Source: Candidatus Heimdallarchaeota archaeon (lineage in GTDB: Archaea > Asgardarchaeota > Heimdallarchaeia > Heimdallarchaeales > Heimdallarchaeaceae). Taken from it: 21,711 bases of DNA. The stretch lies in the NCBI GenBank assembly GCA_030668825.1, contig DAOVET010000040.1, positions 1 to 21,711 on the forward strand, in the 5' to 3' direction. The notes beneath the pieces are model-generated. The model was not told the origin of the DNA. It was given only the letters and a program-made list of their open reading frames with translations, and did no database searches. Position 1 is the stretch's first letter. Every line of letters starts with the position of its first letter. The position numbers and the translations under genes are program-made. Shown here in pieces: positions 3,721-21,711 of the stretch.

Positions 3721-4293
3721 ATGGAAATTCATTTTGTAACTCACAATTCTTCAAAATACGAAGAAGCTTCGAGTATTGCTAAAGAGTACAACTTGTTAGT
3801 CAAATGGTATGATCACGAATATGAAGAACCTCAAGAAGATTCGCTTGAAATTATAGCACGAAAAAGCTGTTCTAGAGTAATTCAAGAGAAACCTGAACTA
3901 GAAGCACTTAATTTCTTTCTTGAAGATGCAGGGTTGTTCATAGAAGCTCTGAATGGTTTTCCTGGCCCATATTCCGCATATGTGTTTAAAACAATAAGTA
4001 ATGATGGAATACTAAAGCTAATGGAGGGTAAAGAAAATAGGAGAGCATATTTTAAATCAGTGATAGCGTTTCACAATGGAAAGTCTATAGAGACCTTTAC
4101 AGGAATAACAAGGGGTTCAATAATTCTCTCTACTATCGGTGACAAAGGATTTGGATTTGATCCAATTTTTAAACCAGAAGACAATGAACAAACTTTTGCT
4201 GAAATGACACTAGCAACCAAGAATTTATATTCTCACCGCCAAAAGTCACTTCGAATATTATTCACCTCCTTAACAGCCTTCGCAAAGCAATAA
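3721..4293 (+). CDS. rdgB: Non-canonical purine NTP pyrophosphatase (RdgB/Ham1, XTP/dITP diphosphatase)
   Basis: [39 protein letters not shown] and SHR motifs. Confidence 0.95.
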
Positions 4294-12056: not shown

Positions 12057-13659
12057 AGAACTGAACGCAATAAAGAAAAATTGGACCCATGAGAAAATCA
12101 AAATCGGTTTAATTTATCCAAACACTTATCGAGTAGCTATGACAAGTTTGGGTGTTCAGTTACTATATTTTCTATTTAACGAAAGAGATGAGATAATCTG
12201 TGAACGAATTTTCAAACCCCTTGATTATAAAATAGCCCCTTATTCTCTGGAAAGCCAAAAGAAACTAGCGGATTTTGATATTTTAGCGATCTCGTGTCAA
12301 TTTGAGCAGGATTATATCCAAGCAATTGGGCTGTTGATAAGAGGAGGAATAAATCCAGATGTTAGGCAAAGAAAAGAAGCAGATCCACTCATTATTCTTG
12401 GGGGACCATCAGTCACAGCAAATCCTTTTCCAGTCTTATTTGTGGGAGATATTTTTTTCTTAGGGGATATAGAACCAGTTAGTGAGGCATTCATATCGTC
12501 TTTAATGAATAGTAATAAAAAAGAAAGAATAGAAGCGTTAGCTTCGGTTCCAGGAATCATAGCTTATGCTCATCATTTTTCAGAAAAAGGGGAATGGATA
12601 GGAGATAATGTAAGAAGTGTTAAGCTGAAAGATATTTCTAATTCATTTTTCCCAATCAAACAAATCATACCTGAGGGTGTTAAAGGCACTAAGAATGAAC
12701 CAATTTTTGGTAAAGCATACTATCTAGAAACAGATAGAGGATGTTCTGAAAGATGCAAATTCTGTTTTGTGGGTCATTGTAGATTTCCTAGAACAGCTAG
12801 AAGTTTGGACAGTCTTATTGATATAATTGACCGAGCTGGTGAAGTAAACGATTTTGAAAAAATTGTACTTTACGGAAGCGCAATTGCTCAATCCGGCAAT
12901 CTTGATGATCTAATAGAATATATAGTGGCTAAGGGGTACGAAGTATCATGCTCATCATTTAGAGCAGATTATCTCACTGAAAAATTACTTAAGGCACTCA
13001 AAAAAGGAAAACAACGAACCATATCTCTTGCTCCTGAAACAGGGGATGAAAAACTCAGATTAGCTTTAAATAAAAGAATGAATGACGAAACCATTTTTTC
13101 AGCTCTTAAACTAGCTTGGGGTGCAGGTTTTAGGAAATTAAAATTATACATGATTTATGGGTTTCCTTGTGAAGGAGAGGAAATAAAGGTTGCAACAAAG
13201 AATTTTGTGAGTACAATTAGGGAAAGATATTTCCCTACAGGTCGAATAGGAATTTCTATGAATCAATTCATCACAAAGGCACACACTCCTTTTCAGTATG
13301 CCCCCATGATAGGTGTTAAGGAATCTAAAGAAGAACAAAAGTGGTACAAAAGCAATTTATACCAAATCAAAAATATTGATTTATCTCTTTATGCGCCTGA
13401 ATGGTCAATAATTCAAAGGGTTTTGTCCTTACAAAATCACGAGTATTATCCTGTTATTTATCAAATTGCAAAAGGAAGAAATACAGTAGGTAGCTGGAAA
13501 AAAGCTTTAAGAGAAATTGACAGTACTCTAGATAAAGAAGCTAAATGGAAATACAATGTAAATGAATCTCTTCCTTGGGAACACATAATACACACTCTAG
13601 AAAAGAAAACACTTATTTCCTCTTATAAGAAATATCTTGAGATTATGGACTGTAAATGA
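12046..13659 (+). CDS. Radical SAM protein with N-terminal B12-binding-like domain, function unknown
   Basis: RGCSERCKFC (CxxxCxxC), N-terminal YPNTYRVAMTSLG and ILGGP, SSFRAD, SLAPETG, KLYMIYGFP, KAHTPFQ. Overlaps the glmU stop. Confidence 0.9.
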   Translation: MQIKELNAIKKNWTHEKIKIGLIYPNTYRVAMTSLGVQLLYFLFNERDEIICERIFKPLDYKIAPYSLESQKKLADFDILAISCQFEQDYIQAIGLLIRGGINPDVRQRKEADPLIILGGPSVTANPFPVLFVGDIFFLGDIEPVSEAFISSLMNSNKKERIEALASVPGIIAYAHHFSEKGEWIGDNVRSVKLKDISNSFFPIKQIIPEGVKGTKNEPIFGKAYYLETDRGCSERCKFCFVGHCRFPRTARSLDSLIDIIDRAGEVNDFEKIVLYGSAIAQSGNLDDLIEYIVAKGYEVSCSSFRADYLTEKLLKALKKGKQRTISLAPETGDEKLRLALNKRMNDETIFSALKLAWGAGFRKLKLYMIYGFPCEGEEIKVATKNFVSTIRERYFPTGRIGISMNQFITKAHTPFQYAPMIGVKESKEEQKWYKSNLYQIKNIDLSLYAPEWSIIQRVLSLQNHEYYPVIYQIAKGRNTVGSWKKALREIDSTLDKEAKWKYNVNESLPWEHIIHTLEKKTLISSYKKYLEIMDCK

Positions 13660-13660
13660 A

Positions 13661-14323
13661 ATGAACTCACACTTTCCTCAAACTATTCGAGAAGCTAAGG
13701 ATTTTCAAAAAAAAATAGCAAATAAAGTTATTTTAGAAGATATGCTTTCTGAAATTACAACAATAGGAGCTTTTGATATATCTTATAAACAAGACAAAGC
13801 TTTTGCAGCTGGTATTATTATCGACAATGCAACTGAAGAAGTCCTGGAGGAAGAGGTTATTGTAAGCGAAATTCAGTTTCCATACATCCCAACCTTCTTA
13901 TTTCTACGTGAAGTTCCTTCCTTCATCTCCTTACTATCAAAAATTTCAATCAAACCTGATTTAGTATTAATTGATGGTCATGGTATTGCGCATCCAAAAA
14001 ACGCAGGCTCAGCTACAGTTTTTGGAGTATTAGCTAACATTCCTTCAATCGGTGTTGCAAAGAAACCTTTGAAATTCTTTGAATATAAATCATCTGAAGT
14101 CAAGTATCTAAAACAAGTTTTCTTAAATGAGAAATTTGTGGGATATAAATATCAGCCCAATACAAATTGGAATCCAGTTTTCATATCGCCAGGAAATTTG
14201 GTTTCAGTAGAATCCTCATTTACATTCATTCAGAATCTTTTCAAAAGTCGTTTCAAACTACCTGCACCACTACATAAAGCACACAATTTAGCTACACAAT
14301 TTAGAATTGAACATCTAACTTAG
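13661..14323 (+). CDS. nfi: Endonuclease V (deoxyinosine 3' endonuclease)
   Basis: GAFDISY, FPYIP wedge...LRE, LIDGHGIAHP, SIGVAKK, PVFISPG, LPAPLHKAH. ATG 13661 lies just after the radical SAM stop. Confidence 0.93.
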   Translation: MNSHFPQTIREAKDFQKKIANKVILEDMLSEITTIGAFDISYKQDKAFAAGIIIDNATEEVLEEEVIVSEIQFPYIPTFLFLREVPSFISLLSKISIKPDLVLIDGHGIAHPKNAGSATVFGVLANIPSIGVAKKPLKFFEYKSSEVKYLKQVFLNEKFVGYKYQPNTNWNPVFISPGNLVSVESSFTFIQNLFKSRFKLPAPLHKAHNLATQFRIEHLT

Positions 14324-15143: not shown

Positions 15144-17441
15144 TTATACCTCTACATCACTCGAATGGAATAAGACATCCCTATTAATTGCTGATTTAAA
15201 GAGACCTAGAAGTAACTCATTTGAAGTTCTCACAGCTATGGGTATTGAATCTGCAGTTAGGAAAGCGAATACAGCTTCGTTATTGCCATCCAAAATCCCG
15301 CAGTAGACATCTTTCTTATCATAGTGTTTCAGTTTCAATCCTGTAAACCTTTCTGAAAGTGGTCTAAGGATAGACTGATGTCTTTTGTCAAAATATGAAA
15401 CTAATGTTACTCGCTGAGCTTTTGTGTATTGCATCATTTCTTTAAGAAGATCTTCATCAACATCTGGTGTAACAAGAAGGAGTTCATAATTAGACCTCAT
15501 TGCAATGTCTGTAATACTGGCTTTGATAGCTTCTTCTCCTACAATAATAGATGTATCATGTTGTCCATCAAATGAATATGATGATGCAGCACCATCAACT
15601 TGCCTTAATTCATCTTCTCTTGTATTAACAACTTGATAGAAAGTCATTGCTTTTTCCAAAAGAGAATCCATTTGAGAATCTAATATTTCATCAACATCTT
15701 TTATTACAGCCGCAACTTGAGATACTAGAGTGTTGATTTGGATTTCTTCGCCTTCTGAAATCTGTTCTATAATCTGTTCCTTTTGTTCATCTTTATAATC
15801 CTTAAGATGCTGTTTTAGTCCAGTTAGCTGCATAGCTAATTGATTTCGTTTTTCTTCTGATTTCTGCTGAAAATGATTTAAAGAATTTTGTAGTTTTTCT
15901 TTTAATTCAAGTGCCATCTTCTCTGAATCTTGTTTTGATTTGCTTAACTCTTTAATAGTATCATTTTGAATTTTATTAATAATCTGAGTTTTTTCGTTAT
16001 CATGAGACTGAAAATCTTTTAGAACTTGTTCTTTAGTAGTATTTAGCTGATCTAGAGTGTTTTGCTTTAATTCTTCTGTTACCTCTGAACAGGAATCATA
16101 TGAAGAGGTGGCATACACTTCTGTTTGATTTTGGAGCGTTTCCAAGAGATTCTTTGGTAGCAAATCTATCTTCTCTATAATTGTATCAGTTAGTTCATTC
16201 TTCTTTGTTCGAATGGTTGTTTCTCCTGTTATCTGAAAATGGTCCAATTTAGAACGCAACGCTTCCCTAACTTCATTTAAGGACAAAACATGTTGATCTA
16301 TCAATTGCAATCCACTCTCATTCAAATCATTAGCTAAGTTTCGAACAGTATCTCTTGCATCTTGGAGAGGTGCCTCAATTTGTTTTTTTCCTTTACCCAA
16401 TTTCATCATAGTAGAGCCTTCTAGACCATTTAAAGCTTCAGCGATTTTTGAAGACAAAAAGTTTGTCTGTCTGTCGATTTGTTCAACACTTCTTCTAAGC
16501 TCTTGAGTCTGTTTAATTTGGTCAGAGAAAATGTTGTTTACTTCAGAAGAGAGTTCTTCGACTACTTTTTTCGACTCTAAGTTCCATGCACTATAAGATT
16601 CTTGCCAAATTCTATTATAATTCTCGAGGAAGGATTCTTGAATTTCAGTCACATCATTAACAAGATCTTTGAGTGCATTATCCATATCTGGAGCTAGTTT
16701 TTCTAGAAATTCTTTATGATTCTCTGTATGAGAACCTAAACCATTGTTAATAATCTGTGTTAGATTTTCAAAAGAACTTTGTATTTTTTCTTCAGTTGTT
16801 TGGACTAAAGCATCACTATTATGTTTTGCTGTATGGTGGAACTGTTTTACAAAAGCATTGAGTTCTTGCACAAAAGTTTCCAACTGTGTAGAAAACAGGA
16901 AGGGCTGATCCATCACTTGAGTCAGATACCCAGTTACTTCTTGTTCTGTTTCAGTTATGAAAGCAGAAGCTGATTTTTCAGTTTGTTCGCTATGCTCAAC
17001 ATATTGTTGAAATAGCGCTTCGACTACTTGTTTAATTAAACCACTAACTACATGAATGTCAAAAACAGAACCTTCACCAGTTAATTCTAGAGTTCCCCCA
17101 AATTTAGTTTTCTTTTCTCTATACTCTTCCTTTGCACCTTTTAATGCAGTTATTACACCATCTAAGGAGTATAATGCGTCTTTTTCTATAATTATGTATT
17201 CTTTAAGAAAGGGGAGCATAGCAAAGTACTGAGGGGTTTTTCCTGCTGTTTTCTTCAAGAAACCCAATTCTTCCAAATTCTTAACTGATTGAATGAGGGT
17301 AAGGGGATCCAAACCTGTTACTACTAGTAATTCACCTATAGTTACTTTTCCTAACCCAAGTGTAGCAGAATACACTTTTATATCAATTTCATTAAAACCT
17401 ATACGAGTTAATAGTGGGGGTAGTATATTGATTCTTGACAT
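15144..17441 (-). CDS. TrmB-like protein: N-terminal wHTH, ~540-aa helical insert, C-terminal PLD-like/TrmB effector domain
   Basis: LTRIGFNEIDIKVY...GKVTIGEL...LEELGFL...PQYFAMLP resembles the TrmB HTH. Residues ~78-622 are E/Q/K/L-rich helix. The C-terminus IIVGEEAI...I..RSNYELLLVTP...CGILDGNNEAVF resembles the TrmB/PLD-like domain. Confidence 0.75.
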   Translation of the reverse strand: MSRINILPPLLTRIGFNEIDIKVYSATLGLGKVTIGELLVVTGLDPLTLIQSVKNLEELGFLKKTAGKTPQYFAMLPFLKEYIIIEKDALYSLDGVITALKGAKEEYREKKTKFGGTLELTGEGSVFDIHVVSGLIKQVVEALFQQYVEHSEQTEKSASAFITETEQEVTGYLTQVMDQPFLFSTQLETFVQELNAFVKQFHHTAKHNSDALVQTTEEKIQSSFENLTQIINNGLGSHTENHKEFLEKLAPDMDNALKDLVNDVTEIQESFLENYNRIWQESYSAWNLESKKVVEELSSEVNNIFSDQIKQTQELRRSVEQIDRQTNFLSSKIAEALNGLEGSTMMKLGKGKKQIEAPLQDARDTVRNLANDLNESGLQLIDQHVLSLNEVREALRSKLDHFQITGETTIRTKKNELTDTIIEKIDLLPKNLLETLQNQTEVYATSSYDSCSEVTEELKQNTLDQLNTTKEQVLKDFQSHDNEKTQIINKIQNDTIKELSKSKQDSEKMALELKEKLQNSLNHFQQKSEEKRNQLAMQLTGLKQHLKDYKDEQKEQIIEQISEGEEIQINTLVSQVAAVIKDVDEILDSQMDSLLEKAMTFYQVVNTREDELRQVDGAASSYSFDGQHDTSIIVGEEAIKASITDIAMRSNYELLLVTPDVDEDLLKEMMQYTKAQRVTLVSYFDKRHQSILRPLSERFTGLKLKHYDKKDVYCGILDGNNEAVFAFLTADSIPIAVRTSNELLLGLFKSAINRDVLFHSSDVEV

Positions 17442-17564: not shown

Positions 17565-18215
17565 TCAATTGGTTTCCACACCATTTTTAGGACAATAAGA
17601 TTGCAAAAAGCATTCGATACATTTGGGCTTTTGTGCTTTGCAGATAGCTCTGCCATGTGAGATAAGTAGATGAGTAATTTTCCCCCATTTCTCCTGTGGA
17701 ATTATTTCCATCAATTCCTTTTCTATTTTGATAGGATCAATATTATTTGTCAAACCCAATCTGAAGGATATACGTTTTACGTGGGTATCAACGGCAATCC
17801 CCTCATGAATTTCAAACCAATCATTTAGAAGAACATTAGCAGTTTTCTGTCCTACACCAGTTAATTTGGTCAATTCTTGCAAGGATGTTGGGATTTTAGA
17901 ATCATATTTTTTGATCAATTCTTTTGACATCTCATGAATGAATTTTGCTTTGTTTTTATATAATCCAACTTCCGAAATGGCTTGCTCAATTTCTATAATA
18001 GAGGCACTTGCAAAAGCTTGGGGGTCTGGAAAAGTGGAAAATAATTCTTTAGTAACAGAATTAACTTGTTTGTCTGTACTCTGTGCACTTAGAATAGCGG
18101 CAACTAACAGCTGATAAGGAGAAGTATAATTAGTTAATCCACCCTTAAACGTAGGATAGTATTCCTCTAGTTTTTCTAAAAGTAATATAGTTCTTTTCTT
18201 TAATGAAGTGCTCAT
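17565..18215 (-). CDS. nth: Endonuclease III (HhH-GPD DNA glycosylase with 4Fe-4S cluster)
   Basis: LSAQSTD, HhH LTGVGQKTA (catalytic K), AVDTHV (catalytic D), CKAQKPKCIECFLQSYC. Start moved to ATG 18215. Confidence 0.95.
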   Translation of the reverse strand: MSTSLKKRTILLLEKLEEYYPTFKGGLTNYTSPYQLLVAAILSAQSTDKQVNSVTKELFSTFPDPQAFASASIIEIEQAISEVGLYKNKAKFIHEMSKELIKKYDSKIPTSLQELTKLTGVGQKTANVLLNDWFEIHEGIAVDTHVKRISFRLGLTNNIDPIKIEKELMEIIPQEKWGKITHLLISHGRAICKAQKPKCIECFLQSYCPKNGVETN

Positions 18216-18488
18216 CAAAGAAGAAGAAGAGATAGGTAATTTATATGTTTTTAAAAGACAGAAACTAAAAATCACTAGTATAACTCTTAAAATAATTAAC
18301 ACTTTAAAAAGGAAAATAAAAATAGCATCAATCATCTCATAAGGTTCTCATTAGTAGATTCATGGATTGATGTATTTTCACTCCCCAAATATTAAAGATA
18401 GAACTATTTTTTCTTTTTCTTATCTAAGCCACAAATTGCTGTAAATAGTGTTAGATATATCCAAGAAACATATACACAAAGAAATATC

Positions 18489-18502: not shown

Positions 18503-18544
18503 GTATCCAAGACTATAAATTATTTGTATAAAGGGGAATATAGA

Positions 18545-19114
18545 ATGGGCGCAGGACAACGGAAAATCTTCAAAATCACACTACTTGGAGACGGAGCAGT
18601 TGGCAAGACAAGTCTTCGAAAAACCTATCTAGGTGAGGGTTTTAAAGATGGCTACTCCATGACAATTGGGGCTGACTTCGCTGTTAAACGATTAAGAATA
18701 GATGACCAAGATTTTGTTGCTCAGATTTGGGATCTCGCAGGACAACAGAGATTCTCAGCTGTTCGTGAAGTTTACTATCGCGGAACATCTGGATGTTTAT
18801 TAGTTTTTGATATTTCTCGACGTTCAAGTTTTGAAAATATTCCATCTTGGATAGCAGAACTTCTAAAGAACAATAGTAATAGAGTTGTACCAATAGTTCT
18901 CATAGGCAATAAAAGCGATCTTCGAGCTACAGCTAAGGATCCAATTATGCGAGAACAATCTGAAGAGTATGCTCGCAGTCTTTCAGCTTGGTCAGGCTTT
19001 ACTGTTCCTTATATCGAAACCTCTGCCAAAACTGGCGAAAATGTTGATGAAGCATTTAAGACCTTGTTAAAGAATATTGTTTTGTTTTACGAAAAATTAT
19101 ATGCTCAACAATAA
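18545..19114 (+). CDS. Rab-like small GTPase (Ras superfamily)
   Basis: G1 GDGAVGKTS, G2 T in YSMTIGADF, G3 WDLAGQ, G4 GNKSD, G5 ETSAK, and RabF-like motifs IGADF, VAQIW, RFSAVR, YYRGT, LVFDIS. ATG 18545 follows GGGGA. Confidence 0.95.
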   Translation: MGAGQRKIFKITLLGDGAVGKTSLRKTYLGEGFKDGYSMTIGADFAVKRLRIDDQDFVAQIWDLAGQQRFSAVREVYYRGTSGCLLVFDISRRSSFENIPSWIAELLKNNSNRVVPIVLIGNKSDLRATAKDPIMREQSEEYARSLSAWSGFTVPYIETSAKTGENVDEAFKTLLKNIVLFYEKLYAQQ

Positions 19115-19142
19115 GTAATTGCTTTTCCTTTTCTTTTGTTTG
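19115..19142 (+). terminator. T-rich tract between the convergent Rab-like and coiled-coil/wH genes
   Basis: GTAATTGCTTTTCCTTTTCTTTTGTTTG; oligo-T runs are typical of archaeal intrinsic terminators. Confidence 0.45.
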
Positions 19143-19949
19143 TTACTGATTATTATTGATTCGTATATTCATTGTATCCTCATCAAATTCAGCATGAAGA
19201 GAAACTGTTCCATCTTCATTTATATTTAAAATCTTCATCTGTTCTAGCTCTGAAATATACTTCTTTGTTTGTGAAAGAGAAACCCCAAGTACAAAAGACA
19301 GCTGAATTGGAGCTATTACGCCCATTCTTCTAAGAAGGTTTATGATGTTAAATCTTGGATCAGTGGTTACTATTCTTTCTAGAATATTTTTTTGTTTCAT
19401 CCATTTATCCGTATCTTCTTTGATTTTCTCCATCTCATCTTCTAATTTCTTTTTTTCTACCTCAATCGCAACAACTTGGTCTGATAACTCATAAATTAAC
19501 GAATCTCTTTCTTCTAGAAGTAGATTGAGCATATCTTTTTCTCTTTGAAATTCCTCTAAAACCCCAGTGTCCATCTTCTCGCCACTTTCGGTAGCATCGT
19601 TAGATTTTCTTTGAATCATCCTTCTATCATGTTGATAGGGAGATACTGAGAACATGCTTGATAAGAAATTAAACAATCGGAAGAATTCTGATTTCATCTC
19701 AGCTATTACTACGTCTGAAGAGTTTTCCAGAAGCTCACTAACATATTGTATTGCGGGATCTAGTTCTAGAGTTGATGTTTGATTTTTTTTCTTGACCTTT
19801 TCCGCTTTAGCTTCTTTTTTTCCTGGTGATTTGAGATTTTCCTTTAATTCTTCAACTTCTTCAGAAAGCTTTGATATTTCTGTAGCGATTTCTTGAAATT
19901 CATCATCATCCTCAGATTTTTTCTCATCATAGTTTTCCATCGAAATCAT
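19143..19949 (-). CDS. Coiled-coil protein with C-terminal winged-helix domain
   Basis: Heptad-like coils at aa ~17-40 and ~130-193. C-terminal DPRFNIINLLRRMG...IQLSFVLGVSLSQTKKYISELEQMKILNINEDGTVSL is a wHTH pattern. The ATG abuts the upstream stop (TAG-ATG); alternative start at 19940. Confidence 0.75.
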   Translation of the reverse strand: MISMENYDEKKSEDDDEFQEIATEISKLSEEVEELKENLKSPGKKEAKAEKVKKKNQTSTLELDPAIQYVSELLENSSDVVIAEMKSEFFRLFNFLSSMFSVSPYQHDRRMIQRKSNDATESGEKMDTGVLEEFQREKDMLNLLLEERDSLIYELSDQVVAIEVEKKKLEDEMEKIKEDTDKWMKQKNILERIVTTDPRFNIINLLRRMGVIAPIQLSFVLGVSLSQTKKYISELEQMKILNINEDGTVSLHAEFDEDTMNIRINNNQ

Positions 19950-20780
19950 CTATATTTTTGCTGTTGATTCAATCTTGAAGCCTTCGGATTCAGAGGGGGT
20001 AAGATCAAAGTTTTCACTTACATAGGCTACTCCCATTAATTTTGTAATTGCAAAAGTATCTTTTATTCTGCTTCCGACAGTGCTTCTTGAAAAATAAAAT
20101 ACCCCCTGAGCAGCATTCATGATTATTCTTTCAGCTACAGAATCTAGCACATCTTGAGGTAATAGAAAGAAATGCACACCACCTATCTTAGTTAAAGACA
20201 TTATTGTTCCCTTTAAAAACGTGATTAGAGCATTTGAATCTTCATCCAATCTATCTTCTTTCATCCATAATAAATCATCAAAAACACTAAAACATTGTTT
20301 ATTCTGATTTTCTTTTACATGAAGCATTCTATCAATAATTTTCTTAACATAAGTTTTTCTTTTTACTTCAATCTTTCCTAGTTTTAGAGAAGAAGTCATT
20401 GAAGAGCTGGAAAGATTAAACATATTTTCAAAATACCAGTTCTTACCTTCGAAAGGTTTCACATCCCACTTATAAGCGTTGAATGAATTCAAAATATGAG
20501 AATACGGACGAGTACTATGAACATAGAAAATTACATTATTAGAGTTTTGAGCCCAATTCAGAAGAATTCTTTGAATAAATAATGTTGGTATCACTGTTTC
20601 TGAAGGATAACTTACCAGTATAAGAGATCCTTGAGGTAACCCTTTTCTTGAGGACATCTCCATCCCCAATTTTTGATCAAGTGATCTAATACCAGTTTGA
20701 ATTAAATCACCTCTTGCATCCTTTGAGGGGTTTGACTTTCCTATACGTTCTGTCCCTCCAGATAGTGAGTTCATATCCAT
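19950..20780 (-). CDS. Inactivated KaiC/RAD55-like RecA-fold protein (pseudo-ATPase)
   Basis: IQTGIRSLDQKLG...GLPQGSLILV is the KaiC/RadA N-terminal signature. The Walker A position reads YPSETVIPT, Walker B-like is CFSVFDD, and the C-terminus FAITKLMG...EGFKI resembles KaiC. GAGGA RBS. Confidence 0.8.
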   Translation of the reverse strand: MDMNSLSGGTERIGKSNPSKDARGDLIQTGIRSLDQKLGMEMSSRKGLPQGSLILVSYPSETVIPTLFIQRILLNWAQNSNNVIFYVHSTRPYSHILNSFNAYKWDVKPFEGKNWYFENMFNLSSSSMTSSLKLGKIEVKRKTYVKKIIDRMLHVKENQNKQCFSVFDDLLWMKEDRLDEDSNALITFLKGTIMSLTKIGGVHFFLLPQDVLDSVAERIIMNAAQGVFYFSRSTVGSRIKDTFAITKLMGVAYVSENFDLTPSESEGFKIESTAKI

Positions 20781-20802
20781 TGAACATTCCTCAAATAATT
20801 AG

Positions 20803-21315
20803 CTAAAATTGCTCTAGCTCCCGTAGTGCAAGTTCTAAATCAGATATAAATTCATCTTGAACCTTCTTCTCTTCTTCAACAGCAACTGGTTGGGCAGCTA
20901 CTACGGGTTGAACTTCCGGAGCTGGGACGGGTTTTGCTTCAACGTCCAATATATTTCTGATTTTTTCTGCTGCCATTTTCATGGTTCTTCTAACCATTCC
21001 AAGAGCTACACCGGCATCTGTAATTAAGCACACAACAGTACTTCCACAACTTGCTACTAAAATTAAACCATCTGAAAATTCAGAGATAATTATATCTAGC
21101 ACAGCTAATCCAACATTTGTACCTTGCTGTTCACTGGCTAAGTAAACTGCACTTGCTATAGCTCCAAGAGCTTCTGTTTCAAATTCATCAAAAGCGAATC
21201 TTGAAGAATAAGCCAATGTTAATCCTGTCTTATCAGCTAATATAACGTGATTAATATTAGCATCGCTTGTTATAATTTCATGAAGTATTGTATTTATTTG
21301 GTCAGCACCATACAA
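20803..21315 (-). CDS. Roadblock/LC7 (MglB/LAMTOR-like) protein with C-terminal linker and acidic amphipathic helix
   Basis: VILADKTGLTLA...EALGAIASA...LDIIISEFSDGLILV...LITDAGVALGMVR is the classic Roadblock pattern. A TTG start at 21315, 5 nt after GGTGA, is preferred over 21327. Confidence 0.9.
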   Translation of the reverse strand: MYGADQINTILHEIITSDANINHVILADKTGLTLAYSSRFAFDEFETEALGAIASAVYLASEQQGTNVGLAVLDIIISEFSDGLILVASCGSTVVCLITDAGVALGMVRRTMKMAAEKIRNILDVEAKPVPAPEVQPVVAAQPVAVEEEKKVQDEFISDLELALRELEQF

Positions 21316-21434
21316 GCAAATCACCAAGTATTTTACGACATCTCTTAATGTCTATTTGTTATTTAATATATTTATATGTAGTGTTAATATTTTTATCAAG
21401 CAAACTTTTTAAACATGACGTAAAAACTAACCAC

Positions 21435-21711
21435 ATGATTAAGATAACTTATCCCGTTATTATACTAAATTTTAAGAATTATGATCAAACGATTGGGAAG
21501 AAGGGATTACATCTTTCCAAGATTGCAGAAGAGGTTGCTAGAGAGTTAAGTGTGTCAATTGCAGTTTGTCCTCAAACCGTTGACTTAAGGAAAATCGCAG
21601 AAGAGGTTGATATTCCAGTTTTAGCACAGCATGTAGATGCAAATGATTCTGGAAGTTATACAGGAAATAATCTTATTCAAGCCGTAATAGAAACAGGAGC
21701 AATTGGTTCTC
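21435..21711 (+). CDS. tpiA: Triosephosphate isomerase (archaeal type), partial; runs off the right edge
   Basis: Not in the ORF track. Manual translation MIKITYPVIILNFKNY...IAVCPQTVDL...PVLAQHVD...GSYTG...GAIGS contains the NFK substrate-binding motif and the archaeal AQH-D...GS.TG motif. Confidence 0.93.
   Translation, partial: MIKITYPVIILNFKNYDQTIGKKGLHLSKIAEEVARELSVSIAVCPQTVDLRKIAEEVDIPVLAQHVDANDSGSYTGNNLIQAVIETGAIGS

What the first reader, a model, noticed from the sequence alone, without database searches (positions are those of the whole stretch)
18545..21315. Candidate undescribed GTPase signalling module: Roadblock - dead KaiC-fold - coiled-coil/wH operon facing a Rab-like GTPase
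Seen: three minus-strand genes with 22-nt and 0-nt gaps form an apparent operon (Roadblock, pseudo-KaiC, coiled-coil+wH). It ends 28 nt from the stop of an intact Rab-like GTPase. Established: Roadblock domains regulate or scaffold small GTPases (MglB-MglA, Ragulator-Rag), many Rab effectors are coiled coils, and KaiC-like proteins have been proposed as archaeal signalling hubs. Inference: the four genes may encode a switch (GTPase), a regulator (Roadblock), a nucleotide-independent scaffold (pseudo-KaiC) and an output or effector (coil-wH). That would couple an archaeal KaiC-type hub to a eukaryote-like Rab switch. I know no named system with this composition. The link to the Rab gene rests only on adjacency, because it is transcribed convergently.
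Basis: partly seen in the sequence, partly recalled or inferred. Interest (0 to 1): 0.82.

Follow-up and report, generated by a model that had tools for sequence, protein, structure and literature searches.

The report
Relocated MglB Roadblock with dead-KaiC operon
Three tightly packed genes (an MglB-type Roadblock protein, a KaiC-fold protein that has lost its nucleotide-binding loop, and a coiled-coil protein ending in a winged helix) form an operon conserved across one order of Heimdall-type Asgard archaea, whereas the neighbouring Rab-like GTPase gene stays beside it in only one family of that order.

Summary
On the minus strand, Roadblock (20803-21315/21327), pseudo-KaiC (19950-20780) and coiled-coil+wH (19143-19949) lie 22 and 0 nt apart. 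The trio ends 28 nt from the stop of a Rab-like GTPase (18545-19114, +).

The trio is co-conserved. Roadblock-pseudoKaiC are adjacent in 30 of 33 loci of the order, and pseudoKaiC-coil/wH in 29 of 33.

The Rab-like gene is a neighbour only in family f1 (25 of 25 loci). Its 65-69% orthologues lie on other contigs in 5 of 5 genomes of families f3/f4.

New finding: the Roadblock is the reciprocal-best orthologue of a near-universal Asgard Roadblock (185 of 201 genomes). Its profile hits MglB best. Outside this order it is followed directly by an MglA-type GTPase in 13 of 20 loci. In this order the MglA locus lacks it in 6 of 6 genomes.

My reading is that the MglB orthologue moved into a new operon with two proteins whose strict orthologues I found only in this order. 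I infer that this operon links the MglA/MglB switch to a scaffold and a DNA-binding or adaptor output. Function and binding remain untested. It is a new variant of a known kind, of moderate interest.

The parts
20803..21327 (-). Roadblock/LC7 protein of MglB type. The probable start is the TTG at 21315, giving 170 aa. It has a Roadblock core, a variable Pro/Ala/acidic linker and a conserved C-terminal helix.
   Evidence: Pfam Robl_LC7 25.5 bits, above cut-off 23. Profile A2 best solved hit is MglB at 8.1e-7, then LAMTOR2 and CvnB5. A match is present in 185 of 201 genomes of the phylum sample. Reciprocal best hit of the Roadblock from cluster locus L075.
20806..20841 (-). Codons of the last 12 residues of the Roadblock protein: a C-terminal amphipathic motif (D/E-L-x-x-A-L-x-E-L-E-x-F at the C-terminus).
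   Evidence: Invariant or nearly invariant in 11 of 11 order-level orthologues. Recognisable in the 16 orthologues from other Asgard families that I aligned.
20781..20802 (-). 22-nt spacer between Roadblock and pseudo-KaiC, with a GAGG 9 nt before the ATG.
   Evidence: Read directly from the sequence.
19950..20780 (-). Single-domain KaiC-fold protein (276 aa) without a Walker A lysine ('pseudo-KaiC').
   Evidence: Pfam KaiC 24.4 bits. Profile A1 against PH0284 8.2e-18. AF2 pLDDT 82.8. Foldseek matches KaiC/PH0284/FlaH/Sso2452. No Walker A lysine in 20 of 20 aligned sequences; Asp168 of the Walker B-like stretch is invariant within the order. Strict orthologues found only in families f1-f4.
19143..19949 (-). 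Coiled-coil protein with a C-terminal winged helix (268 aa). Its start codon abuts the pseudo-KaiC stop (0-nt gap).
   Evidence: AF2 model: helix 123-196, wH 198-251. Conserved W183, TDPR(Y/F) and wH core. Foldseek gives only weak matches (E 7e-3 or worse) to MarR/ArsR/DtxR-type wHTH domains. NCBIfam gives a weak Sul12a hit, 1e-4, far under cut-off. Strict orthologues found only in f1-f4.
19115..19142 (.). 28-nt convergent spacer. It is T-rich on the + strand, so it could be an oligo-T terminator for the GTPase gene. There is no T-run on the - strand.
   Evidence: Read directly from the sequence. The terminator role is inference.
18545..19114 (+). Rab-like small GTPase (189 aa), with no C-terminal cysteine. 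It is a neighbour of the trio, not a conserved component.
   Evidence: Pfam Ras 4.7e-49. Best solved hits are Thor-Rab, Ypt7/Rab7 and Rab11. 97-100% identical across 20 same-genus loci. Linked to the trio only in family f1.

Best explanation
The three minus-strand genes are one operon that is conserved across the order containing Heimdallarchaeaceae. Strict orthologues of its second and third genes were found only in that order.

Its first gene is the Asgard orthologue of MglB. MglB is the Roadblock-domain regulator of the MglA-type small GTPase, and it carries a C-terminal helix after a flexible linker. In most other Asgard lineages this gene lies in a cluster: small Roadblock, this Roadblock, MglA-type GTPase, third Roadblock. 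In this order it has left that cluster. The MglA-type GTPase and the small Roadblock remain together on contig C89 of this genome. The relocated gene now sits directly upstream of a KaiC-fold protein that cannot bind nucleotide in the canonical way, and of a coiled-coil protein ending in a MarR/ArsR-like winged helix.

Most likely mechanism (inferred, not shown): the three proteins assemble. The Roadblock dimer reads or controls the nucleotide state of the MglA-type GTPase. The dead KaiC-fold protein acts as a nucleotide-independent oligomeric scaffold. The coiled-coil/wH dimer is the output, either DNA binding or adaptor.

The Rab-like GTPase next door is a syntenic neighbour within one family, not a conserved component.

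Shown: gene layout, co-conservation, orthology, loss of the Walker A lysine, and relocation relative to the MglA locus. Inferred: complex formation, the role of each protein, and the link to MglA after relocation.
For: Operon and co-conservation:
- Gaps of 22 and 0 nt.
- Roadblock-pseudoKaiC are adjacent and co-oriented in 30 of 33 loci of the order. PseudoKaiC-coil/wH are adjacent in 29 of 33 loci, across families f1, f3 and f4, while the flanking genes change. In f2 the pseudoKaiC C-terminal piece and coil/wH are adjacent on a short contig.

Order-restricted partners:
- The pseudo-KaiC profile A4 gives E of 1e-115 or better in 28 genomes, all in f1-f4. The next best is 2e-25.
- The coil/wH profile A5 gives E of 1e-38 or better only in f1-f4.

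MglB identity of the Roadblock:
- Best solved hits are MglB at 8e-7.
- A match is present in 185 of 201 phylum genomes, mostly as one strong match per genome.
- It is the reciprocal best hit of the cluster Roadblock.
- The C-terminal motif is conserved across the phylum.

Ancestral partner:
- In 13 of 20 loci from other families the orthologue is directly followed by a GTPase.
- The G000 orthologue of that GTPase hits MglA at 5e-31, against 3e-10 for Arf.

Relocation:
- In 6 of 6 genomes of the order the MglA locus lacks this Roadblock, while the small Roadblock is beside MglA in 5 of 6.

Dead KaiC fold.

Precedent for Roadblock + GTPase + wHTH regulatory sets:
- Conservons (abstracts of PMC13343842 and PMC13621833).
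- Group 3 MglA neighbourhoods with a wHTH protein (passage in PMC4316618).
Against: - No binding, activity or expression data exist for any of the three proteins.
- The trio is broken up in genera g7 and g12 of family f3 (3 of 33 loci). The coil/wH gene is missing at the locus, and was not found with this query, in G026, which is 91% complete. The three are therefore not obligatorily encoded together.
- After relocation nothing ties the trio to the MglA-type GTPase except ancestry.
- The wH domain is only weakly similar to DNA-binding wHTH domains, so DNA binding is a guess.
- No fused forms of pseudo-KaiC with either partner were found (weak evidence).
- Kin genomes are not independent, so the counts overstate the support.
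Confidence: 0.5

Rival explanations
1. One reading: the four genes form one module. The adjacent Rab-like GTPase is the switch, the Roadblock is its GAP/GEF, the pseudo-KaiC is the scaffold and the coil/wH is the effector.
For: - The GTPase lies within about 1.3 kb of the trio in 25 of 25 family-f1 loci spanning four genera. It stays close even after a local inversion in g4.
- Only 26 Ras-family genes occur in 2.76 Mb, so chance adjacency in one genome is roughly 2-3% by my arithmetic.
- The GTPase is unusually constrained: 97-100% identity within the genus, where coil/wH is 52-95%.
- Roadblock dimers are generic platforms for small GTPases (introduction of PMC10933270).
Against: - The gene is convergent in 23 of the 25 f1 loci. 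In g4 it is on the trio's strand, but EndoIII on the opposite strand lies between them. It is therefore never placed to be co-transcribed with the trio.
- Orthologues (65-69% identity) are on other contigs in 5 of 5 f3/f4 genomes, including G036 with only 10 contigs.
- 0 of 8 f3/f4 trio loci show a match within the flanks.
- Orthologues elsewhere share no neighbour with the trio.
- The f5 GTPase beside a KaiC-like gene is not among the best matches to this GTPase.
- The whole block TrmB-coil/EndoIII/GTPase/trio/TIM is syntenic in f1, so the adjacency can be inherited without selection.
- The Roadblock's ancestral neighbour is an MglA-type GTPase, not a Rab-type one.
Confidence: 0.13
2. The trio is a DNA repair or replication accessory. 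The pseudo-KaiC would be a RadB/Rad55/aRadC-like inactive RecA-superfamily mediator, and the coil/wH would bind DNA.
For: - Sources name close homologues 'RAD55 family ATPase' or 'KaiC/GvpD/RAD55 family RecA-like ATPase'.
- The RadA paralogue Sso2452 is among the best sequence and fold matches.
- Repair genes lie nearby in this window: EndoIII 17565-18335 and EndoV 13637-14323.
- In genus g7 the RFC small subunit directly follows pseudo-KaiC (L030) or the Roadblock (L032). A distant KaiC-like relative in f6 is followed by an RFC-large-like gene and an XPD-like helicase.
Against: - RFC-S is adjacent only in g7. It is on another contig in G000 and G038, and about 159 kb away in G027.
- EndoIII is a neighbour only in f1.
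- RecA itself scores only E = 0.51 against the profile, whereas KaiC-like proteins score 1e-11 to 1e-18.
- The operon's first gene is an MglB-type Roadblock. I know of no repair role for that family (my own knowledge, not tested).
Confidence: 0.15
3. Three functionally unrelated genes are kept together only by inherited synteny, and no complex forms.
For: - The region is a housekeeping block: TIM, ABCE1-like, V-ATPase B-like and ribosomal-protein genes flank the trio in various genomes.
- The trio is dispersed in g7 and g12.
- All genomes compared are kin.
Against: - The 0-nt and 22-nt spacing is kept while both flanks are replaced between families.
- The Roadblock moved out of a phylum-wide conserved cluster to this position.
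- Both partner genes are as old as the relocation, that is, order-restricted.
Confidence: 0.1

Closest known systems
MglA-MglB polarity switch (Myxococcus xanthus, Thermus thermophilus)
   Same: - The Roadblock profile's best solved relatives are MglB.
- Architecture: Roadblock core plus linker plus a conserved C-terminal helix. The M. xanthus MglB C-terminal helix that binds MglA is recalled from the literature; of PMC6785124 I saw only the abstract listing.
- Orthologues elsewhere in Asgard are encoded directly upstream of a GTPase (13 of 20 loci).
- The orthologue of that GTPase in this genome hits MglA at 5e-31.
   Different: - In this order the MglB-type gene is no longer next to mglA.
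- Its operon partners are a dead KaiC-fold protein and a coil/wH protein, which are not part of any described Mgl system.
- The ancestral Asgard cluster has three to four Roadblock paralogues rather than one.
- The NCBIfam MglB equivalog cut-off is not reached (18.4 against 200 bits).
Actinobacterial conservons / G protein systems (CvnA-D)
   Same: - A Roadblock/MglB protein, an MglA-family GTPase and an accessory protein form a regulatory set (abstracts of PMC13343842 and PMC13621833; passages of PMC4316618).
- CvnB5 appears among the solved hits of the Roadblock profile (6.5e-3).
   Different: - No histidine-kinase-like CvnA was found among the window proteins scanned.
- There is no GTPase inside the operon.
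- The pseudo-KaiC and the coiled coil have no counterpart.
Archaeal KaiC-like ATPases as signalling hubs, including inactivated homologues (Makarova, Galperin and Koonin 2017)
   Same: - A single-domain KaiC-like fold, like PH0284, Sso2452 and FlaH/ArlH.
- Loss of the ATPase motif.
- Linkage to a putative wHTH output.
   Different: That paper is not held. Its content is recalled from its abstract and from citations, so I cannot say whether a Roadblock-linked inactivated KaiC family is listed there. This family's strict orthologues were found only in one Asgard order.
Ragulator (LAMTOR2-5) - Rag GTPase scaffold of eukaryotes
   Same: - Several Roadblock paralogues sit around a small GTPase in the ancestral Asgard cluster.
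- Weak Pfam hits: this Roadblock to MAPKK1_Int/LAMTOR3 (0.0037 here; 1.4e-7 for the L075 orthologue), and the 99-105-aa Roadblock to LAMTOR5 (4e-6).
- LAMTOR2 is among the solved hits (1.2e-3).
   Different: - The GTPase is MglA-type, not Rag-type.
- No LAMTOR1-like anchor was looked for.
- MglB scores better than any LAMTOR.
- Nothing like pseudo-KaiC or coil/wH occurs in Ragulator.
Asgard Roadblock - Rab-like GTPase - DENN operon (Liu et al. preprint 10.1101/2020.10.19.343400)
   Same: A conserved Asgard neighbourhood joining a Roadblock-superfamily protein with a small GTPase (passage seen).
   Different: That operon has a LAMTOR1-like protein, a Rab-like GTPase and a DENN protein. None of these is in the trio. 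I could not see its figure or supplements, so I cannot tell whether the Roadblock-MglA cluster found here is also recorded there.

Membership tests
Roadblock/LC7 (Pfam PF03259) | Sequence match at or above the Pfam gathering score | tested here: met
   25.5 bits against a cut-off of 23, residues 17-99.
MglB-type GTPase regulator | Closest characterised relatives are MglB proteins | tested here: met
   Profile A2: MglB 8.1e-7 to 1.6e-6 are the top three solved hits; LAMTOR2 scores 1.2e-3. The NCBIfam MglB equivalog scores only 18.4 bits against a cut-off of 200. This is therefore family-level likeness, not equivalog membership.
MglB-type GTPase regulator | Encoded next to an MglA-type GTPase | tested here: not met
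   Not met in this window or in the other 5 genomes of the order examined (6 of 6 lack it at the MglA locus). Met for orthologues in 13 of 20 loci of other Asgard families. An MglA-type gene exists in G000 on C89.
MglB-type GTPase regulator | GAP (or GEF) activity on its GTPase | not testable with these tools
   Needs a biochemical assay.
KaiC family (Pfam PF06745) / KaiC-like ATPases | Sequence and fold of the KaiC-type RecA-superfamily domain | tested here: met
   This protein alone scores 24.4 bits, under the cut-off of 26.6. Orthologue P0053 scores 31 bits. Profile A1 against PH0284 gives 8.2e-18. Foldseek TM about 0.75-0.79 normalised to single-domain targets.
KaiC family (Pfam PF06745) / KaiC-like ATPases | Walker A motif G-x-x-x-x-G-K-T/S | tested here: not met
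   No lysine at that position in 20 of 20 aligned relatives. The order consensus there is P-P-x-T-x-L-P-T-L-F, aligned to the G-P-G-T-G-K-T of PH0284.
KaiC family (Pfam PF06745) / KaiC-like ATPases | ATPase/autokinase activity; hexamer formation | not testable with these tools
   Not assayed. Oligomer state was not modelled.
Bona fide circadian KaiC | Two tandem KaiC domains (about 500 aa) | tested here: not met
   276 aa, one domain.
Rab family small GTPase | Closest relatives are Rabs | tested here: met
   Thorarchaeota Rab 1.2e-39, Ypt7/Rab7 about 1e-35, Rab11, Rab2 and Rab1.
Rab family small GTPase | C-terminal cysteine(s) for prenylation | tested here: not met
   The protein ends ...YEKLYAQQ with no cysteine near the end (translation). 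Thor and MK-D1 Rab-like proteins also lack it, according to PMC10933270 (passage).
[quoted passage not shown] | Sequence or fold match to wHTH families | tested here: inconclusive
   Pfam HTH_24 0.026, under cut-off. The AF2 model has three helices and a hairpin at 198-251. The best Foldseek E is 7e-3, to PF0095, MarR and CadC. NCBIfam Sul12a 1e-4, far under cut-off.
Conservon (CvnA-D) | Histidine-kinase-like CvnA and MglA-family CvnD inside the operon | tested here: not met
   No kinase domain among the window proteins scanned. No GTPase on the operon's strand.
Anti-phage defence systems (PADLOC) | Match to any defence-system protein model | tested here: not met
   0 families for each of the four proteins at E of 0.01 or better.

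The most novel reading that the evidence does not exclude
In the order that contains Heimdallarchaeaceae, the pan-Asgard MglB orthologue was rewired. It left the MglA/Roadblock cluster and became the first gene of a newly assembled operon with a nucleotide-blind KaiC-fold hub and a coiled-coil winged-helix protein. This would create a pathway not described elsewhere, in which the state of a small GTPase is passed through a Roadblock dimer and a pseudo-ATPase scaffold to DNA, that is, transcription or chromatin. In family f1 it may additionally have captured the neighbouring Rab-like GTPase as a second input.
Probability: 0.22. Interest if true: 0.65.

Novelty: new variant of a known kind. Interest (0 to 1): 0.45.

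Why it matters
Asgard archaea carry many small GTPases and Roadblock/longin proteins. Matching regulators to GTPases from genome layout has been called difficult (PMC10933270, discussion passage).

This locus gives one concrete assignment. A near-universal Asgard Roadblock is an MglB orthologue whose ancestral neighbour is an MglA-type GTPase. One order has moved it beside two proteins whose strict orthologues I found only in that order.

That yields a small, testable set of five proteins for asking how a prokaryotic-type GTPase switch is wired to downstream components in close relatives of eukaryotes: the Roadblock, the pseudo-KaiC, the coil/wH, the MglA-type GTPase and the Rab-like GTPase.

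It also adds a clear case of an inactivated KaiC-fold protein in a conserved operon.

It does not show a link between a KaiC hub and a eukaryote-like Rab.

Tried and rejected
- **Complex prediction.** I sent Roadblock (A2), coil/wH residues 140-268 (A3) and pseudo-KaiC residues 24-276 (A4, as partner). One search gave no usable answer and I re-sent it once, as the tool advised. The result was 'no answer', score 0.00 in two runs, and the controls were not folded. This is neither support nor evidence against binding.
- **Makarova et al. 2017.** The paper is not held by DOI or by PMC id. Its content is recalled or cited second-hand only.
- **The search for related loci with alignment A1.** I did not re-run it and used the genome search with profiles instead.
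- **Fusion search for pseudo-KaiC ('longer').** 1726 candidates, none at E of 1e-5 or better. This is weak evidence of absence.
- **ESM Atlas for coil/wH.** Best scores were 0.86-0.88, to unnamed Asgard clusters and HTH_24/MarR clusters. These are under 0.9, so they are leads only.
- **Sequencing runs.** Only assembled contigs were available.
  - X1, labelled RNA-Seq but probably DNA, has six 100%-identical pieces over all four genes.
  - X6, an RNA library, has one 254-nt contig at 21052-21305 with 5 differences.
  - X4 has one 244-nt contig spanning 18919-19162 across the convergent spacer.
  - None of these shows transcription, strand or co-transcription, and uncovered parts mean nothing.
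- **Sigma-70 promoter and hairpin terminator scan.** Counts were at or below the shuffled expectation (11 found against 14.7 expected; 2 against 1.9). The models do not fit archaea, so I discarded it.
- **Class-wide GTPase/KaiC-like linkage in f5 (L038-L040).** Rejected. That GTPase is a paralogue. It sits in its own operon with a 93-aa protein, a metallophosphoesterase and a DUF63 membrane protein.
- **Coil/wH as a paralogue of the 765-aa TrmB-coil neighbour.** Rejected; BLASTP best E was 0.087.
- **Supplementary files.** They were closed. The asCOG tables of Liu et al. and the tables of Wuichet and Sogaard-Andersen may already list the Roadblock-MglA cluster.
- **Literature searches for this gene combination.** No paper found describes it. 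They cover only the held library.

Full report
**What is in the sequence**

- A plus-strand gene at 18545-19114. An upstream TTG at 18524 is possible, but orthologues in several genomes start at the ATG.
- Three minus-strand genes at 19143-19949, 19950-20780 and 20803-21327.
- The spacers are 28 nt (stop to stop, convergent), 0 nt and 22 nt.
- The Roadblock gene most likely starts at the TTG at 21315, where the orthologous ORFs of other genera begin.
- The 22-nt spacer carries GAGG 9 nt before the pseudo-KaiC ATG.
- The 28-nt convergent spacer is T-rich on the plus strand only.

**What the four proteins are**

*GTPase.* It matches Pfam Ras at 4.7e-49. Its best solved relatives are the Thorarchaeota Rab, Ypt7/Rab7, Rab11, Rab2 and Rab1. 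It has no C-terminal cysteine.

*Roadblock.* It passes the Pfam Roadblock threshold (25.5 against 23 bits).

*Middle protein.* On its own it scores just under the Pfam KaiC threshold (24.4 against 26.6 bits).
- A profile of 20 relatives hits the single-domain KaiC-like protein PH0284 at 8e-18, then KaiC, Sso2452 and FlaH. RecA scores only 0.51.
- An AF2 model (pLDDT 82.8, pTM 0.81) superposes on the same proteins.
- Where PH0284 has G-P-G-T-G-K-T, all 20 aligned relatives lack the lysine.
- 'Dead KaiC fold' is therefore a fair description, although loss of nucleotide binding is inferred from the motif and was not measured.

*Third protein.* It has only sub-threshold Pfam hits.
- Its AF2 model has one 74-residue helix (123-196) followed by a three-helix, two-strand winged helix (198-251). 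Block-mean pLDDT is 84 or more across 131-250.
- Foldseek finds only weak matches (E of 7e-3 or worse) to MarR/ArsR/DtxR-type DNA-binding domains.

**Is the trio conserved?**

The window is contig C44 of genome G000. Source names on near-identical proteins read Candidatus Heimdallarchaeaceae or Heimdallarchaeota.

I fetched 33 loci around pseudo-KaiC orthologues. They come from families f1, f3 and f4 of the window's order, which holds four coded families, and I mapped all neighbours by tblastn.

| Feature | Count | Exceptions |
|---|---|---|
| Roadblock-pseudoKaiC adjacent and co-oriented | 30 of 33 | L030-L032 (genera g7 and g12) |
| PseudoKaiC-coil/wH adjacent | 29 of 33 | L025 and L030-L032 |

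- In L030-L032 the genes lie 3-14 kb apart or on other contigs.
- In L025 (G026, 91% complete) the coil/wH gene is missing at the locus. It was also not found in that genome with this query.
- The flanks differ between families: EndoIII and the GTPase in f1, ABCE1-like and phosphate-transporter-like genes in f3, and a V-ATPase-B-like gene in f4. Only EndoIII and the GTPase were confirmed by Pfam. The f3 and f4 neighbours are named from the look of their N-terminal sequences.
- The trio's internal spacing stays tight all the same. In G040, for example, the pseudoKaiC-coil/wH gap is again 0 nt.

Profile searches over a 201-genome sample of the phylum show that strict orthologues of pseudo-KaiC occur only in f1-f4: E of 1e-115 or better in 28 genomes, with the next best at 2e-25. 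The same holds for coil/wH, with E of 1e-38 or better only in f1-f4. Weaker coiled-coil+wH paralogues occur in many Asgard lineages and in G000 itself.

**Is the Rab-like gene part of it?**

Within family f1 it is always close (25 of 25 loci). However, the whole block TrmB-coil/EndoIII/GTPase/trio/TIM is syntenic there.
- In the two complete genomes of genus g4 the EndoIII-GTPase segment is inverted. The GTPase then lies directly upstream of the 765-aa TrmB-coil gene, and EndoIII separates it from the trio (L023/L024).
- In families f3 and f4 no match to it lies in the flanks of 8 of 8 trio loci.
- Its clear orthologues (65-69% identity) are on different contigs in 5 of 5 genomes searched, including G036 with 10 contigs.
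- Those orthologues share no neighbour with the trio.
- A GTPase convergent on a distant KaiC-like gene in family f5 looked promising. It is not among the best matches to the window's GTPase in those genomes, and it belongs to its own operon.

With 26 Ras-family genes in 2.76 Mb, the adjacency is somewhat unlikely by chance in a single genome. It is not a conserved linkage.

**The unexpected part: identity of the Roadblock**

- A profile of the Roadblock found a match in 185 of 201 genomes of the phylum, usually one strong hit per genome.
- I fetched 20 of these loci from families outside the order. In 13 of 20 the orthologue is directly followed, on the same strand, by a roughly 190-aa GTPase. 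Commonly a 99-105-aa Roadblock precedes it, a roughly 121-134-aa Roadblock follows the GTPase, and a fourth Roadblock is divergent.
- G000 has that GTPase on contig C89 (55% identity to the f5 one). Its best solved relatives are MglA of Thermus and Myxococcus (5e-31 and 1e-28), far ahead of Arf (3e-10).
- The Roadblock profile's best solved relatives are MglB (8e-7).
- The orthology is reciprocal: the cluster Roadblock of L075 finds the window's gene as its best hit in G000 (3.8e-33, next 1.6e-6).
- In all 6 genomes of the order that I examined, the MglA locus lacks this Roadblock. The small Roadblock remains next to MglA in 5 of 6.

The simplest history is that the MglB-type gene left the Roadblock-MglA cluster at or before the base of the order and was placed upstream of pseudo-KaiC and coil/wH.

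The protein's last 12 residues form a motif that is invariant or nearly so within the order. The motif is recognisable across the phylum, so its binding partner is presumably older than the trio.

**How it most likely works**

*Shown:* the layout, the co-conservation, the orthology, the loss of the Walker A lysine and the relocation.

*Inferred:*
- The three proteins assemble.
- The Roadblock dimer still communicates with the MglA-type GTPase.
- The pseudo-KaiC serves as a nucleotide-independent scaffold, possibly co-assembling with active KaiC-like paralogues. Weak hits to 470-490-aa proteins appear.
- The coil/wH dimer is the output, as a DNA-binding protein or an adaptor.

Precedents for Roadblock + MglA-family GTPase + accessory or wHTH regulatory sets are the actinobacterial conservons (abstracts of PMC13343842 and PMC13621833) and the Group 3 MglA neighbourhoods (passage of PMC4316618).

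I give this reading 0.5.

**Comparison with the literature**

Six full-text searches found no paper describing a Roadblock/inactivated-KaiC/coiled-coil-wH operon.
- Tran et al. 2024 (PMC10933270, passages) describe Asgard Roadblock and Rab-like structures. They note that MK-D1 GTPase genes are generally not in operons with Roadblock genes.
- Liu et al. (preprint, passages) list three Roadblock/longin families and two small-GTPase families in the Asgard core. They describe a different Roadblock-Rab-like-DENN operon.
- The KaiC-hub paper of Makarova et al. 2017 was not available, and supplements were closed. The Roadblock-MglA cluster, and perhaps this pseudo-KaiC family, may therefore already be tabulated there.

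**Verdict**

The added finding, an MglB orthologue relocated from its MglA cluster into an order-specific operon, makes this a new variant of a known kind of GTPase-regulatory module. Interest is moderate (0.45). It gives a defined five-protein set for experiments, but there is no functional evidence yet.

Noticed in passing
L071-L090 (for example L075:6184-8981); G000 contig C89 (L096:6310-7223): A phylum-wide Asgard cluster of three to four Roadblock paralogues around an MglA-type GTPase: a divergent Roadblock of about 118 aa; then a Roadblock of about 99-105 aa (weak LAMTOR5 hit); the MglB-type Roadblock with the C-terminal motif; the MglA-type GTPase; and a Roadblock of about 121-134 aa. 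The GTPase is present right after the MglB-type gene in 13 of 20 loci. Two loci (L077, L089) keep the Roadblocks without the GTPase.
   Followed up: partly
window 15144-17441 (-): A 765-aa protein with an N-terminal TrmB-type wHTH (Pfam 4.1e-6), a very long helical/coiled middle and a conserved C-terminal domain. It lies within about 1-5 kb of the trio in f1 and in parts of f3 (L029, L033). In genus g4 it is directly downstream of the Rab-like GTPase on the same strand (L023, L024). It is not similar to the coil/wH protein. Its PADLOC ZorA hits look like coiled-coil composition.
   Followed up: partly
L030:6610-8410; L032:9758-11285; L036:6366-10880: In genus g7 the single-copy RFC small subunit directly follows pseudo-KaiC (G036) or the Roadblock (G032). 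In family f6 a distant KaiC-like protein without the Walker A lysine (Pfam KaiC 4e-35) is followed by an RFC-large-like AAA+ protein and an XPD-like helicase. RFC-S is far from the trio in G000, G027 and G038.
   Followed up: partly
L040:3626-7171 (also L038, L039): Family f5 has an operon of a 93-aa protein with no Pfam match, a Ras-family GTPase, a calcineurin-type metallophosphoesterase and a DUF63 membrane protein. It is convergent on a KaiC-like gene whose P-loop reads G-E-P-G-T-K-F.
   Followed up: partly
L025:5156-6475 (G026): The coil/wH gene is absent between pseudo-KaiC and the convergent GTPase (21-nt gap). It was not found elsewhere in that 91%-complete genome with the window's protein as query.
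   Followed up: partly
window 18545-19114 and L002-L020: The Rab-like GTPase is 97-100% identical in protein sequence across 20 loci of the genus (one of them, L019, covers only residues 28-189). In the same loci the Roadblock is 83-97% identical, pseudo-KaiC 76-96% and coil/wH 52-95%. This is an unusually constrained small GTPase.
   Followed up: no
L099:5627-5959; L102:6664-7029: In two f3 genomes a small basic/acidic protein of 110-121 aa directly follows the orthologue of the Rab-like GTPase. A roughly 495-aa thioredoxin-like protein lies nearby. A similar roughly 498-aa protein lies upstream of the f6 KaiC-like gene (L036:2683-4179).
   Followed up: no
window 3721-4293, 13637-14323, 17565-18335: Three enzymes that deal with damaged bases or nucleotides lie in one 15-kb stretch: Ham1/ITPase, endonuclease V and endonuclease III. 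The listed EndoIII ORF has a hydrophobic N-terminal stretch of about 40 residues that orthologues do not align to, so its true start is probably further in.
   Followed up: no
window 19115-19142: The convergent spacer has a T-run only on the plus strand. The minus-strand operon therefore has no obvious oligo-T terminator before it would run antisense into the 3' end of the GTPase gene. One 244-nt contig of run X4 crosses the spacer, but it shows neither strand nor RNA origin.
   Followed up: partly
window 21288-21710 (+): Triosephosphate isomerase is divergent from the Roadblock gene. The Pfam TIM match begins at residue 56 of the listed ORF, so the real start is probably near 21435. That leaves a divergent promoter region of about 120 nt that is very AT-rich. 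Trio-TIM adjacency is kept in f1 and in G038 (f3).
   Followed up: no
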